A stretch of 64,000 nt of DNA, taken from positions 1 through 64,000 of the IMG/VR virus record IMGVR_UViG_3300020179_001470; one strand, given 5' to 3'. Shown piece after piece: positions 45,896 to 48,475 of the stretch. Under the pieces are notes generated by a model that saw nothing but the letters and a program-made list of their open reading frames with translations, was not told the DNA's origin and made no database searches. How positions within the stretch are numbered: the stretch's first letter is position 1; each line of letters opens with the position of its first letter. The position numbers and the translations under genes were made by a program. This stretch comes from a virus.

Positions 45896-45926
45896 TTTGG
45901 AAATCTCAAAAAATACATTACATTTG
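45896..45926 (+). promoter_or_regulatory. Bacteroidota-type housekeeping promoter upstream of the tracr/CRISPR locus
   Basis: TTTG (45896-45899), 19-nt spacer, TACATTTG (45919-45926). Confidence 0.8.
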
Positions 45927-45936
45927 TATTGTAATT

Positions 45937-45948
45937 GTTCTTTGAAAT
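45937..45948 (+). promoter_or_regulatory. boxA-like antitermination element
   Basis: GTTCTTTGAAAT just downstream of the predicted start site. Confidence 0.5.
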
Positions 45949-45969
45949 ATTGGAAACTTCAATATATTA

Positions 45970-46085
45970 TTTCATCAGAGGTAAAACTTTGGTGGGGGTG
46001 GTTGTACACCCCATAGTGAATCCTGAATAAACAGGGTGGAATTTATCTGGAGATTAACTTCTCACTCACTAAATACCTTTTATTT
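45970..46085 (+). ncRNA. Putative tracrRNA (split copy of the reRNA scaffold)
   Basis: Paralogous to 48324-48429 with covarying stems; loop GTTGTA and 3' ATACCTTT are both complementary to the repeat's 3' half. Confidence 0.8.
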
Positions 46086-46140
46086 TTAAATAAGGGAATC
46101 ATTCACAATATGTTGATTCGTAATAAGATGGGTTAACCAT

Positions 46141-46894
46141 GTTGTAAATACCTCTTATTTGAAAGGTGTATACAACTGGTTTGAACTGTTTGCACCTCCC
46201 TGAAGAGTTGTAAATACCTCTTATTTGAAAGGTGTATACAACTATGACCAACAGAACTTGATGTTAAATCAAGTTGTAGATACCTCTTATTTGAAAGGTG
46301 TATACAACTGAAATTCCACCTAATGACTGGAATCCAGGTTGTGGATACCTCTTATTTGAAAGGTATATACAACGTTAATCCTCTTTGATTGTGAGGTTAT
46401 GTGTTGTGGATACCTCTTATTTGAAAGGTACATACAACCGATGAACCGGGTCCTTATCAAATTGAGAGCGTTGTAAATACCTCTTATTTGAAAGGTGTAT
46501 ACAACGCAATAACCCAATTCCATAATTACGGTATAGTTGTGGATACCTCTTATTTGAAAGGTGTATACAACAGAGAATGATTCAACGGCCATTCCAATAA
46601 GTTGTAGATACCACTTATTTGAAAGGTGTATACAACGTCACTTGTGGCCACTAAATCTGTTGTAGATACCACTTATTTGAAAGGTGTATACAACATTTGT
46701 TCTTTATGTTGATGTGGAGGACGCACTGTAACGCTAAGGTTACTGGTTGTAGATACCTCTTATTTGAAAGGTATATACAACTAGTCGTATTAGTACCGAT
46801 ACTACAAAAACGGAAAGGTATATACAACATGTAGACTCTTGGGTGTTGTGTTAACCACGTTGTAGATACCACTTGTTTGAAAGGTATATACAAC
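46141..46894 (+). CRISPR. CRISPR array: 12 repeats (one 5'-truncated), 11 spacers
   Basis: 36-nt repeat, consensus GTTGTRRATACCWCTTATTTGAAAGGTRTATACAAC, at 46141, 46207, 46273, 46338, 46403, 46470, 46536, 46601, 46659, 46746, 46813 (3' 16 nt only) and 46859. Spacers are 30,30,29,29,31,30,29,22,51,31,30 nt. Decay increases to the right. Confidence 0.98.
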
Positions 46895-46974
46895 TTTAGT
46901 CCAGTCATCCAAAGGAAAATTTGGTTACCACTTGAAGTTTTTAATATGACAATGAACATAAACCCGAACATGAC

Positions 46975-48405
46975 ATGCCAATAATCACAAGAAAAATCAA
47001 ATTGATTGCGGTTGGTGAAACCAGCAAGGACAAAACCGCATCGTACAACTATGTTAAAAGGATTGCATCCGATTTAACTCAGGTGGGTAATGAAGTTATT
47101 CGTCTTCACGTTTGTAATCAATATGAATTGGATAGATTAAAATCATCCATGAACATATCCAAGGGTGATGCAATCAAGATTTTTCAAGAACAGATTGGTA
47201 CATCAGTTCAGAACAGTGGTTATCAAATGTTAACCAAGTTTCCATATATTGCTTCAGATATTAGAACAAACTTCAATCAGAAGATATTCAAAACCATTAA
47301 GGAAAACTTTCACGACATCATGAACAGCAAGATGTCGGTACCATCATTTAGGAAGACATCCATATCCATTCCGTTCAGTGGTGTAAAGGCGGGTGAATGT
47401 GTATTATTTGTTGATGATGATGATGAACATATGTTTAACTTTCCTTTATCATCATCGGAAAAAAGTATTCATAAGGAAATTAAATTCAGATTACATTATG
47501 GTAGGGACCCCAGTAACAATCGTGTCATTGTAAATAGGATTTTGGATGGGACTTATAAGATGAACGGGAGTTCCATTCAGATTGACGATAACGATTTGTA
47601 CTTGTTGTTGACCTGTGATATTCCTGTAAATGTATCCAATAATATGGACCCCAATAAGGTAATGGGAATTGATTTGGGTATTAACCGACCGGTATCAATT
47701 TATATTGATGGGGAGAAACGTCAACCATCACAAATTCAATTGGGTGAGAAGATTCAATCTGAAAGGATGAGGTTCTACAAACAACGTAGAGCACTTCAAC
47801 AATCCATGAAGTTTGCCAAGGGTGGACACGGAAGAAAGAGAAAGATGTTGGGGATGGAAAAACTAAGGGAAAAGGAATCCAATTGGGCTACTCTTATGAA
47901 TCACAACATCAGTAGGGAGGTTATTAATATTGCGCAACAATATAATGTGGGCATTATTAAGATGGAGGATTTAACCGGTATAACCACGAACAAGAATGAT
48001 TATTTTTTAAAATCGTGGGCATACTACCAACTTCAGACCGACATTGAATATAAAGCGAAGATGGTTGGAATTCAAATTCTGTGGGTAAATCCAAAAGACA
48101 CATCCATTACATGTCCAACTTGTAAGAATGTGAATAAGGAGAACAGAAATGATAAGGATAAAACCAAGTTCTCTTGTGTTAATATAGAATGTGATGATTT
48201 TGGTAAACTAAAGGATGCTGATATCACCGCAGCACACAATATTACTTATTCTGAAGGTTCTGATGTGAAAGGTAAGAGTAAGAAAGGTAGATTATTAAAA
48301 GGTATTCAAAAGAAACAAGACATTTTCATCACCACAAGTGATGGGGTTGGTTGTACAACCCATAGTGATTCCTTGTATAAACAGGAGGAGGTAATCTCGG
48401 AGTAA
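46975..48405 (+). CDS. Compact type V effector (Cas12f/TnpB-like RNA-guided nuclease), 476 aa
   Basis: RuvC-I GIDLG, GGHGRKRK, RuvC-II MEDL, Zn ribbon CPTC...CVNIEC, RuvC-III DADITAAHNI; adjacent to the array. Confidence 0.9.
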   Translation: MPIITRKIKLIAVGETSKDKTASYNYVKRIASDLTQVGNEVIRLHVCNQYELDRLKSSMNISKGDAIKIFQEQIGTSVQNSGYQMLTKFPYIASDIRTNFNQKIFKTIKENFHDIMNSKMSVPSFRKTSISIPFSGVKAGECVLFVDDDDEHMFNFPLSSSEKSIHKEIKFRLHYGRDPSNNRVIVNRILDGTYKMNGSSIQIDDNDLYLLLTCDIPVNVSNNMDPNKVMGIDLGINRPVSIYIDGEKRQPSQIQLGEKIQSERMRFYKQRRALQQSMKFAKGGHGRKRKMLGMEKLREKESNWATLMNHNISREVINIAQQYNVGIIKMEDLTGITTNKNDYFLKSWAYYQLQTDIEYKAKMVGIQILWVNPKDTSITCPTCKNVNKENRNDKDKTKFSCVNIECDDFGKLKDADITAAHNITYSEGSDVKGKSKKGRLLKGIQKKQDIFITTSDGVGCTTHSDSLYKQEEVISE

Positions 48406-48475
48406 TGGACTCACTCACTAAGTACTTTTCAAAGGTGTATACAACTAGTAGAATGTCAAATGATGATAACGGAAG
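48324..48475 (+). ncRNA. Putative reRNA/omegaRNA-like natural single-guide RNA overlapping the nuclease stop codon
   Basis: Scaffold 48324-48445 ends in AAAGGTGTATACAAC, identical to the repeat's last 15 nt; putative guide TAGTAGAATGTCAAATGATG... follows. The 3' end is approximate. Confidence 0.8.

What the first reader, a model, noticed from the sequence alone, without database searches (positions are those of the whole stretch)
45896..48475. Phage Cas12f/TnpB-like nuclease keeping both a TnpB-style reRNA and a split tracrRNA plus CRISPR array built from the same scaffold
Seen: one 476-aa nuclease with an intact D-E-D RuvC triad is flanked by two paralogous structured RNAs. The downstream copy (48324-48445) overlaps the end of the gene and runs directly into AAAGGTGTATACAAC plus unique sequence. 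The upstream copy (45970-46085) stops before that 15-mer, which is instead supplied by the 12 CRISPR repeats. No transposase or cas1/cas2 is nearby. Established: TnpB reRNAs overlap the 3' end of tnpB; Cas12f uses tracrRNA plus crRNA; type V systems are thought to derive from TnpB by splitting of this RNA, and dual-guide intermediates have been reported. Inference: this locus preserves the ancestral and the derived guide side by side, in a phage, giving one fixed guide plus an adaptive array. I cannot tell whether this clade is already described.
Basis: partly seen in the sequence, partly recalled or inferred. Interest (0 to 1): 0.95.

Follow-up and report, generated by a model that had tools for sequence, protein, structure and literature searches.

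The report
Phage Cas12f with two guide-RNA modules
A giant lake phage carries a miniature CRISPR nuclease (Cas12f type) flanked by two copies of its helper RNA, one still joined to a guide as a ready-made single guide RNA and one decayed into a helper for an 11-repeat CRISPR array; it is a neat natural variant of designs already described, not a new kind of system.

Summary
The sequence features are real. A 476-aa, single-copy nuclease with intact RuvC motifs (46975-48405) lies between two paralogous structured RNAs (45973-46109 and 48327-48445) and an 11-repeat array (46141-46894). The protein belongs to the Cas12f clade: the best solved relative is Al3Cas12f, and it is far from ISDra2 TnpB and LaTranC. 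The host record is a fragment of a jumbo lake phage. No Cas1, Cas2 or TnpA was found.

Seventeen scaffold copies from related phages share one fold with strong covariation.

- The downstream guide is not fixed. It differs in a strain whose protein is 98% identical. In relatives it is followed by further repeat-spacer units. In this window half of it is a truncated gene start.
- The upstream copy is not cleanly cut. It keeps a decayed copy of the repeat end, followed by a 31-nt spacer-like stretch.
- Scaffold-headed arrays are the rule in this family and in its bacterial sister.

Whether the joined form is ancestral or re-fused remains open. Similar joined guides are published for nuclease-dead Cas12f, and dual guide use for TranC. 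This scan's earlier notes list comparable phage Cas12f single guides in at least 24 other genomes. Verdict: a new variant of a known kind, of moderate interest.

The parts
45942..45970 (+). Promoter-like site (TTGAAA, 17 nt, TATTAT) ending at the start of the upstream scaffold. Its first hexamer lies in the element GTTCWTTGA, which is conserved before scaffolds of relatives.
   Evidence: 10 of 12 matches, though the total number of sites in the region is not above shuffles. The conserved element is seen. Its function is inferred.
45973..46109 (+). Upstream scaffold RNA (tracrRNA-like). It comprises stem 0, hairpin 1 with loop GTTGTA, a junction closed by AGTGA/TCACT, stems 2 and 3, its own distal hairpin, and a decayed repeat-end ATTCACAAT.
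   Evidence: Fold -41.1 kcal/mol, z -3.79, 0 of 200 shuffles as good. Covariation. Covariance-model hit of 123.6 bits, but this copy is in the training set.
46110..46140 (+). 31-nt spacer-like stretch between the decayed scaffold end and repeat 1. It is conserved in L070 and L001 and partly in L074 and L076, unlike true spacers.
   Evidence: No seed of 11 nt or more elsewhere in the 73-kb record.
46141..46937 (+). CRISPR array: 11 full 36-nt repeats (46141-46894), mostly 29-31-nt spacers, one internal half repeat, a last spacer and a truncated terminal repeat.
   Evidence: Spacers 1 (46177-46206) and 6 (46506-46535) occur in foreign context in lake metagenome contigs.
46975..48405 (+). Cas12f-clade RNA-guided nuclease, 476 aa. 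RuvC residues D233/E331/D416 and zinc-finger cysteines C380/C383/C401/C406. Residues from about 450 to 476 are encoded by the downstream scaffold.
   Evidence: Pfam PF07282 6.2e-14 and PF01385 2.4e-9. NCBIfam guided_TnpB 151.5 bits against a cut-off of 100. Al3Cas12f 1.1e-56. Foldseek 1.5e-27. Tail residues 453-476 have pLDDT below 50.
48327..48445 (+). Downstream scaffold joined to a repeat 3' end: a natural single-guide or omega-RNA-like form. It has the same fold as the upstream copy and ends in GGTGTATACAAC.
   Evidence: same architecture, -31.5 kcal/mol, z -1.72, 13 of 200 shuffles as good. 91-98% nt identity to relatives against 77-84% for the coding body. Covariance-model hit of 103.2 bits, in the training set.
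48446..48475 (+). Guide-position sequence of the downstream RNA. It is not followed by a clear repeat in this window.
   Evidence: It differs from L070, L071, L072 and L001 at the same position. No other match in the 73-kb record.
48460..48488 (+). Remnant of a gene start (overlapping stop/start junction) that in L070 lies 1.4 kb downstream of the scaffold. It marks a rearrangement that removed whatever followed the first guide.
   Evidence: BLAST hits of 93% over 29 nt and 96% over 26 nt to L070:5884-5912. Alignment A4. L070 ORFs 5516-5890 and 5887-6138.

Best explanation
This is a type V-F (Cas12f-clade) CRISPR system of a jumbo freshwater phage. Its guide RNAs come from two paralogous 'scaffold-headed array' modules.

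In this family each module is a long scaffold. The scaffold consists of stem 0, a hairpin whose loop GTTGTA can pair with the repeat end TACAAC, a junction closed by AGTGA/TCACT, and a distal hairpin. It runs without a break into a repeat 3' end and a first guide, and then into further repeat-spacer units.

The downstream module (48327-48475) keeps that joined form. It is probably co-transcribed with the nuclease gene, whose reading frame runs about 80 nt into it. It would load the nuclease as a ready-made single guide. In this window its array has been cut back by a rearrangement, so its guide is partly a gene remnant.

The upstream module (45973-46937) has its own promoter-like site. Its own repeat end has decayed, so the scaffold most likely works in trans as a tracrRNA. 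Its ATACCTTT and its GTTGTA loop would pair with AAAGGTRT and TACAAC of each of the 11 repeats.

Targets are co-occurring lake DNA flanked by a 5' TTTR motif. Spacers turn over without a phage-encoded Cas1.

Shown: the anatomy, the fold conservation, the family distribution, the variable guides and the foreign protospacers. Inferred: transcription, processing, loading and cleavage.
For: Protein:
- Best solved relatives are all Cas12f. Al3Cas12f scores 1.1e-56 by sequence and 1.5e-27 with TM 0.65-0.68 by fold.
- Catalytic and zinc motifs align and are invariant.

RNA fold:
- 17 scaffold copies pair in 97.6% of cells. 13 of 20 pairs change on both sides. 0 of 500 shuffles match, and slid controls give 36-47%.
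- Both window copies fold alike on the + strand.
- A covariance model finds exactly two copies in the window and two each in the 310-kb and 246-kb relatives. It also finds scaffolds that were not used to build it: L139 at 61.9 bits, L076 at 87 bits and L156 at 28.8 bits (E 8e-4).

Joined heads are the family rule:
- L007 downstream.
- L155 on both sides, there with 17-nt half repeats.
- L071-73 upstream and downstream.
- L156 in a Lachnospiraceae MAG.

Guides vary while the scaffold is kept.

Scaffold and repeat co-evolve:
- Loop GTTGTG with repeat end CACAAC in L004.
- Loop GTTGGA with TCCAAC in L156.
- Cognate duplex energy averages -9.4 against -5.75 kcal/mol for non-cognate pairs. For 5 of 9 scaffolds no foreign repeat pairs better than their own.

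Targets: spacer 1 lies in non-array context in contigs of 3 runs, with 5' flank ...TTTA. Spacer 6 does so in 1 run, with ...TTTG.

Context:
- The record is a 72,946-nt virus record, 22% complete.
- Phage helicase, thymidylate synthase and methyltransferase genes are present.
- The nuclease is single-copy in 4 of 4 relatives searched.
Against: - There are no RNA data. No RNA run holds the locus, so expression, ends and processing are all inferred.
- The window's downstream copy folds only marginally better than shuffles (z -1.72). It alone changes the loop TGAATAAACA, which 15 of the 17 copies keep. Its guide is half a gene remnant. This particular copy may therefore be idle.
- The scaffold-repeat complementarity could partly reflect common descent. 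The repeat carries its own copy of the same hairpin strand.
- For 4 of 9 scaffolds some foreign repeat pairs at least as well as their own.
- The motif TTTR rests on two spacers.
- L156 sits on a long branch.
Confidence: 0.7

Rival explanations
1. The downstream RNA is the ancestral TnpB-type right-end RNA retained in place. The upstream tracrRNA plus array is the derived split form. The phage therefore holds one fixed guide plus an adaptive array.
For: - The downstream RNA overlaps the 3' end of the gene and has no promoter-like site of its own, as in TnpB.
- The joined state is found in the deepest phage branch (L007) and in the bacterial sister L156, where the scaffold starts within about 10 nt of the stop codon.
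- Arrays arising by duplication of omega-RNA segments is a published idea (PMC10691335, passages read).
Against: - The guide is not fixed. In relatives it heads a mini-array.
- The protein is nested among CRISPR-associated Cas12f. Every outgroup locus examined (6 of 6) has an array.
- The AsCas12f-like outgroup L158 has a classical anti-repeat-only tracrRNA.
- No TnpA and no extra copies.
- In L007 and L004 the downstream module has its own promoter-like leader and lies after the stop codon. The overlap with the gene may therefore be secondary.
Confidence: 0.15
2. Secondary collapse. An ordinary Cas12f tracrRNA recombined with a repeat. The two share the strand AAATACCTYTTATTT, so recombination is plausible. 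This re-created a single guide, as proposed for the sigma-E-linked dead Cas12f lineage. The joined heads are then derived, not relics.
For: - Re-fusion of a tracrRNA with a half repeat is described for Cas12f1 descendants (PMC10691335; PMC13472631).
- For the upstream module alone, parsimony on the tree needs 2 re-fusions against 3 decays.
- In L071, L155 and L004 the upstream and downstream tails are nearly identical to each other. This shows exchange between modules.
Against: For the downstream module the joined state is present in L156, L007, L155, L071, the window, L070 and L001, and split-like only in L004. Within the sampled clade, joined is therefore the simplest ancestral state.
Confidence: 0.4
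3. In this particular phage the downstream copy is a non-functional relic, and only the upstream scaffold plus array is used.
For: - Its array is truncated and its guide runs into a gene fragment.
- It carries unique changes in an otherwise conserved loop.
- It has a weak fold z-score.
- Close relatives L074, L076 and L077 have lost the downstream copy altogether.
Against: - It is still 96.6% identical to the L070 copy (115 of 119 nt).
- All stems remain formable.
- The scaffold is more conserved than the gene across 76-85% relatives.
Confidence: 0.3

Closest known systems
Type V-F1 CRISPR-Cas12f, closest solved member Al3Cas12f (PDB 9NZO/9NZR; PMC13186708, passages read); also AsCas12f, CnCas12f1 and OsCas12f
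   Same: - Same protein fold and motifs.
- Small size, a CRISPR array and no adaptation genes.
- A long multi-stem guide scaffold. The joined natural RNA has the topology of engineered Cas12f single guides, in which tracrRNA and repeat are closed by a loop. That comparison is from recall.
- A T-rich 5' motif is hinted at. T-rich PAMs are reported for that family.
   Different: - It is carried by a jumbo phage.
- It has two guide modules, one on each side of the gene.
- The scaffold is physically continuous with a repeat end and a first guide.
- The repeats carry their own copy of the distal hairpin.
- One scaffold lies inside the coding sequence.
Chimeric single guide RNAs of nuclease-dead Cas12f linked to sigma-E (PMC13472631, passages read; evolutionary scenario in PMC10691335)
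   Same: - Cas12f-clade protein (9n9c: sequence 9.2e-24, fold 5.7e-20).
- Scaffold joined to a guide.
- Loci holding both full-length guides and CRISPR arrays are described there.
   Different: - Here the RuvC triad is intact.
- No sigma-factor link was looked for.
- The setting is a phage.
- The arrays are long, and the guides vary between strains.
TranC, transposon-CRISPR intermediates (Jin et al. 2025, Cell). The paper is not held. It is known to me only from citing passages and from recall of its abstract.
   Same: The idea that one effector can use both a one-piece right-end-type RNA and crRNAs from an array, and that tracrRNA plus crRNA arose by splitting one RNA.
   Different: - The fold match to LaTranC is weak (9jfq: E 2.5e-8, TM 0.46) against 1.5e-27 for Cas12f.
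- Whether any described TranC clade contains this family could not be checked, because supplements are closed.
IS200/IS605 TnpB with omega (right-end) RNA
   Same: - The downstream RNA overlaps the gene's 3' end and runs straight into its guide.
- In this window the guide is partly plain flanking DNA.
- The NCBIfam guided_TnpB subfamily model is passed.
   Different: - No TnpA and single copy.
- ISDra2 TnpB is not among the sequence hits at E up to 1. By fold it scores only 8.8e-13.
- CRISPR arrays are present.

Membership tests
Type V-F Cas12f | RuvC nuclease with D-E-D and a zinc-finger (TNB) insert of TnpB/Cas12f type | tested here: met
   PF01385 2.4e-9 and PF07282 6.2e-14. D233, E331, D416, C380, C383, C401 and C406 are invariant in 17 sequences. 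The motifs align to solved Cas12f.
Type V-F Cas12f | Closest relatives by sequence and fold are Cas12f effectors | tested here: met
   The 14 best of the 15 PDB sequence hits carry Cas12f/Cas14 or TnpB/transposase-type molecule names. The top five Foldseek chains have Cas12f titles. TnpBs first appear at rank 22.
Type V-F Cas12f | Adjacent CRISPR array | tested here: met
   11 full repeats at 46141-46894. All 6 outgroup loci examined also have arrays.
Type V-F Cas12f | Dual guide: tracrRNA pairing with the repeat at two sites | tested here: inconclusive
   Complementarity and co-variation of ATACCTTT with AAAGGTRT, and of the GTTGTA loop with TACAAC. There are no RNA data.
Type V-F Cas12f | T-rich 5' PAM | tested here: inconclusive
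   Two spacers have foreign-context matches flanked by TTTA and TTTG. No cleavage data.
Type V-F Cas12f | Acts as an asymmetric homodimer on one guide RNA | not tested
   No complex prediction was run. The feature is recalled from Cas12f structures.
NCBIfam Cas12f2 (NF049972) | Score above the curated cut-off | tested here: not met
   108.2 bits against a cut-off of 450. The protein is not a Cas12f2.
IS200/IS605 TnpB (OMEGA) | One-piece guide RNA overlapping the gene's 3' end | tested here: met
   48327-48445 overlaps codons from about 451 to 476 and abuts the guide.
IS200/IS605 TnpB (OMEGA) | Transposon context: TnpA nearby and/or several near-identical copies | tested here: not met
   No Y1 transposase in the record or in 4 relatives. 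One copy in each of the 4 relatives' records searched.
TranC (Jin et al. 2025) | Membership of a described TranC clade | not testable with these tools
   The paper is not held and supplements are closed. LaTranC is only a weak fold match.
TranC (Jin et al. 2025) | The effector uses both an array-derived crRNA and a one-piece right-end RNA | not testable with these tools
   Both RNA genes exist. Their use needs experiments.
Sigma-E-linked dead Cas12f | Inactivated or truncated RuvC | tested here: not met
   The triad is intact.

The most novel reading that the evidence does not exclude
In this phage-borne Cas12f subclade the guide RNA was never cleanly split. Every CRISPR array is headed by a complete omega-RNA-like single guide, and arrays grow and are swapped directly behind that head. 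Individual heads then decay into dedicated tracrRNAs. The family, and this locus with one head of each kind, would be a living series of the steps from a one-piece transposon RNA to tracrRNA plus CRISPR array. It would do this in a nuclease-active system that borrows a host's spacer-acquisition machinery.
Probability: 0.3. Interest if true: 0.8.

Novelty: new variant of a known kind. Interest (0 to 1): 0.55.

Why it matters
The origin of tracrRNA plus CRISPR array from the one-piece RNA of TnpB is currently argued from a few reconstructed or engineered cases. This phage family offers natural, closely related loci in every state:
- joined on both sides;
- joined on one side and decayed on the other;
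- decayed on both sides;
- with 17-nt half repeats or with full 36-nt repeats.

All of this is around a nuclease that still looks active. The direction and mechanics of the transition, and the minimal repeat a Cas12f needs, therefore become testable by comparison and by simple expression experiments.

In practice, a natural single guide defines a working scaffold for a 450-aa nuclease without guesswork.

It also shows that jumbo phages keep variable CRISPR arrays without their own Cas1. This bears on how phages acquire spacers.

Tried and rejected
- Rfam: no family matched either RNA. The only hit, SNORD34 at E 0.043 and below its gathering score, lies inside the gene on the other strand and is taken as chance.
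- Cultured-phage database: the array found 4 records, all at E of 0.2 or more, taken as chance.
- Exact searches of IMG/VR for 24-nt pieces of spacers 1 and 6 gave 0 stretches each.
- Spacer 1 with up to 3 mismatches was not found in 401 Flavobacteriaceae genomes searched.
- Spacers and array regions of 19 modules were compared with the own record, two related jumbo-phage genomes (310 and 246 kb), 140 kb of a third and 10 family loci. After filtering, only self hits, repeat hits and the gene-remnant hit remained. The idea that these phages target each other is therefore not supported by this sample.
- No seed of 11 nt or more of the 31-nt upstream stretch or of the downstream guide occurs elsewhere in the 73-kb record. 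An autoregulatory target was not found there.
- Expression: no RNA holder was listed. The one run guessed to be RNA (X20) gave two contigs, a 37-nt repeat piece and 263 nt of the gene. This says nothing either way.
- The pattern scan of IMG/VR for the scaffold gave 75 stretches. After a hairpin filter, all were family loci already known except L139 and three chance hits: L080, L100 and L107.
- L139 was left out of alignment A3 because its 3' end could not be placed. L073 (cut by the contig end), L076 (cut) and duplicates (L005, L006, L075, L150) were also left out.
- The Jin et al. 2025 paper could not be read. Supplementary tables of the papers read were closed and might list this clade.
- Searches behind 'not seen in print'. 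None of the listed papers that I opened describes a nuclease-active phage Cas12f with joined and split scaffolds in one locus. Papers of subscription journals are not covered.
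Full report
ANATOMY. On the + strand the region reads as follows.
- A promoter-like site (45942-45970).
- A structured RNA (45973-46109).
- A 31-nt stretch (46110-46140).
- A CRISPR array of 11 full 36-nt repeats with mostly 29-31-nt spacers (46141-46894), plus one internal half repeat and a truncated last repeat.
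- A 476-aa ORF (46975-48405).
- A second copy of the structured RNA (48327-48445), overlapping the last ~27 codons. It ends in GGTGTATACAAC, the 3' end of the repeat, and runs on into non-repeat sequence.

The two RNA copies are 70% identical over 91 nt (family D6).

THE PROTEIN. It carries the Pfam OrfB_IS605 and Cas12f1-like TNB domains and passes the NCBIfam guided_TnpB subfamily model. It does not pass the Cas12f2 model.

Its best solved relatives are Cas12f nucleases. Al3Cas12f scores 1.1e-56, followed by CnCas12f1, AsCas12f and the other Cas12f entries. ISDra2 TnpB is not among the 15 hits at E up to 1.

An AlphaFold model (pLDDT 80.8) matches Al3Cas12f and AsCas12f at E about 1e-27 and TM 0.65-0.74. 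The dead Cas12f scores 5.7e-20, TnpBs from 1.2e-14, and LaTranC only 2.5e-8 with TM 0.46.

The motifs GIDLG, IKMEDLT and DADITAAHNI align with those of the solved enzymes. D233, E331, D416 and the four zinc cysteines are invariant in 17 family members.

The tail encoded by the RNA gene (residues 453-476) is predicted disordered. Close relatives that lack the downstream RNA end differently. The overlap therefore looks like read-through into an RNA gene rather than a protein domain.

CONTEXT. The window is part of a 72,946-nt IMG/VR virus record that CheckV rates 22% complete. Phage helicase, thymidylate synthase and DNA methyltransferase genes are present.

Relatives lie on contigs of 176-311 kb. 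Nineteen lake-water DNA runs hold at least half of the locus's sampled words.

Neither Cas1, Cas2 nor a Y1 transposase is in the record. Cas1 and TnpA are also missing from a 93%-complete 310-kb relative. The nuclease gene is single-copy in all four relatives' records searched.

THE RNAS ARE REAL AND CONSERVED. I collected 17 distinct scaffold copies from the window and from 10 related loci. RNAalifold gives these elements:
- a hairpin with the loop GTTGTA;
- a long-range helix AGTGA/TCACT;
- an enclosed stem with the loop GAATAAAC;
- a third stem.

On that structure 97.6% of cells pair. 13 of 20 pairs show changes on both sides. No shuffle out of 500 reaches the observed values, and sliding the partners drops pairing to 36-47%.

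Stem 0, read by eye, also changes in a compensatory way:
- CATCAGAG/CTTTGGTG upstream in the window;
- CATCAC/GTGATG downstream in the window;
- CATCTTCT/AGAAGATG in L002.

Both window copies fold into the same architecture on the + strand. The upstream copy scores z -3.79, the downstream copy z -1.72.

A covariance model built from the 17 copies finds exactly two copies in the window and two each in the 310-kb and 246-kb relatives. It also recognises scaffolds that were not used to build it: L139, L076, the cut L073 copies, and the Lachnospiraceae locus L156 at E 8e-4.

WHAT THE RELATIVES SHOW.

(i) The downstream joined RNA is kept in L070 (98% protein identity), L071-L073 (85%) and L001 (76%). 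Its nucleotide identity there is 91-98%, while the coding body is 77-84% identical. Identity collapses right after TACAAC.

(ii) What follows is variable and array-like.
- L070 has a 19-nt spacer, a half repeat, a 27-nt spacer and a repeat remnant.
- L071, L072 and L001 have one or two further full repeats with 30-nt spacers.
- L071 and L072 have identical coding bodies (1352 of 1352 nt) yet entirely different downstream arrays.
So the guide is not fixed.

(iii) The upstream scaffold of L071-L073 is itself joined. It ends ...CATGGGTATATACAAC and runs into a spacer and repeats. The window's upstream tail GGGAATCATTCACAAT aligns with that end and is followed by a spacer-sized 31 nt. The upstream 'tracrRNA' is thus a decayed array head.

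(iv) Deeper relatives:
- L155 (48%, a 248-kb contig filed under a Flavobacteriaceae MAG) has joined scaffolds on both sides, followed by 17-nt half repeats and spacers of about 16-41 nt.
- L007 (43%) has one joined downstream scaffold plus an array.
- L004 (52%) has decayed scaffolds plus arrays on both sides.
- L002, L003, L074 and L076 have only the upstream module.
- The bacterial sister L156 (35%) has the scaffold directly after the stop codon, ending GGTATATCCAAT. It is followed by 45 nt and then by repeats whose 3' half resembles the window's.

HOW SCAFFOLD AND REPEAT MEET. The hairpin-1 loop is complementary to the last six bases of the repeat, and the two change together:
- GTTGTA with TACAAC in most loci;
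- GTTGTG with CACAAC in L004;
- GTTGGA with TCCAAC in L156.

The strand after CACTCACTAA is complementary to the repeat's 3' half and also co-varies:
- ATACCTTT with AAAGGTRT in the window;
- CAACC with GGTTG in L004;
- ATACTATA with TATAGTAT in L155;
- GTACCTTTC with GAAAGGTAC in L156.

Cognate duplexes average -9.4 kcal/mol against -5.75 for non-cognate pairs. For 5 of 9 scaffolds no foreign repeat pairs better than their own. This two-site pairing is what is known for Cas12f guides (recalled). In the joined RNAs it is simply closed by a loop.

Because the full repeat also carries its own copy of the 5' strand, shared descent may explain part of the signal.

THIS WINDOW'S DOWNSTREAM UNIT. 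Bases 48460-48488 match a gene-start junction that in L070 lies 1.4 kb beyond its scaffold. BLAST gives 93% over 29 nt and 96% over 26 nt, at the junction of ORFs 5516-5890 and 5887-6138. In the window that reading frame stops after 12 codons.

A rearrangement has therefore removed whatever followed the first guide. The present 'guide' is a short remnant plus flanking DNA.

The copy also carries unique changes in the loop TGAATAAACA, which 15 of the 17 copies keep. It may still be loaded, but its target, if any, is unknown. No other match exists in the record.

TARGETS. Contigs from three lake runs contain spacer 1 (46177-46206) inside non-array sequence, preceded by ...GTTTTA. One run contains spacer 6 (46506-46535) preceded by ...TTGTTTG (table 7). 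This is the 5' T-rich side expected for Cas12f.

The same call shows array variants in the population: a 265-nt skip and alternative sequence after repeats.

No target was found in cultured phages, in IMG/VR, in 401 Flavobacteriaceae genomes or in related jumbo phages.

DIRECTION OF EVOLUTION. The tree of 11 family proteins and 7 outgroups has this order:
- an AsCas12f-like Bacillota group;
- then L156;
- then L007;
- then L004 with L155;
- then L002 with L003;
- then the window clade.

For the downstream module the joined state is the simplest ancestral state within L156 plus the phages. For the upstream module, two re-fusions are one step cheaper than three decays. The near-identical upstream and downstream tails within L071, L155 and L004 show that the modules exchange sequence.

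The next outgroup, L158, has a classical anti-repeat-only tracrRNA. I cannot tell primary retention from an old re-fusion.

COMPARISON WITH PRINT.
- PMC10691335 (passages) describes the fusion of a half repeat with the tracrRNA in Cas12f1 descendants, re-creating an omega RNA. It also suggests that arrays arise by duplication of omega-RNA segments.
- PMC13472631 (passages) shows chimeric single guides for dead Cas12f. It notes a locus with both full-length guides and CRISPR arrays.
- TranC effectors are reported as intermediates with a functionally split RNA (citing passages). That they use both RNA kinds is my recollection of the abstract. The paper itself was not available.
- Huge-phage surveys mention Cas12f- and TnpB-like genes without RNA detail (PMC11748809).
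- Earlier notes of this scan list comparable phage Cas12f 'natural single guides' in at least 24 genomes. These are unchecked leads, not evidence.

What seems not yet described in the papers I could open is a nuclease-competent phage Cas12f family in which scaffold-headed arrays are the rule, and in which one locus holds a joined head and a decayed head side by side.

VERDICT. It is wrong on the fixed guide and on the TnpB-like identity, and undecided on ancestry. I rate it a new variant of a known kind, interest 0.55.

Noticed in passing
L139:1603-1718: An orphan copy of the scaffold (61.9 bits) on an 88-kb IMG/VR contig. No nuclease gene lies within the 4.3-kb locus, and there is no obvious repeat end or array behind it. 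The contig's sample number is the same as that of the 246-kb relative.
   Followed up: partly
window 45936-45962 and 46932-46958: A 27-nt inverted repeat (81% complementary) brackets the whole upstream scaffold-plus-array module. One arm is the promoter-like region. The other is the conserved sequence TTGAAGTTTTTAATAT... that cuts the last repeat short just before the nuclease gene (pair I1). The second arm is conserved in L001, L070 and L071.
   Followed up: no
window 46177-46206 and 46506-46535: Spacers 1 and 6 occur in non-array context in lake metagenome contigs, with 5' flanks ending TTTA and TTTG. The target organism is unidentified.
   Followed up: partly
window 46637-46903 and 46982: Population variants in lake runs. 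One contig skips 265 nt of the array. Contigs in two runs replace the start of the nuclease gene with the L074-type N-terminus (tables 5 and 7).
   Followed up: no
window 48729-48746 and 49534-49551: An exact 18-nt repeat, TTAAATCAGAATAAGATG, lies at the stop/start junctions on both sides of a DNA methyltransferase gene (48708-49529). See, family D13.
   Followed up: no
L159:2558-2657 and 4232-4399: A Cas12f-like locus of Aneurinibacillus danicus also has repeat arrays on both sides of its gene. Two flanking arrays are therefore not unique to the phage family.
   Followed up: no
L155:2895-2990 and 4455-4560: Arrays made of 17-nt half repeats (AAAATAGTATATACAAC) with spacers of about 16-41 nt behind joined scaffolds. 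These are perhaps the shortest repeat units in the family.
   Followed up: partly
L004:3050-3192 and 4840-4986: The two modules of this 246-kb phage share a near-identical promoter region, stem 0, hairpin 1 and tail, but have different middle stems. This is a mosaic that suggests partial gene conversion between modules.
   Followed up: no
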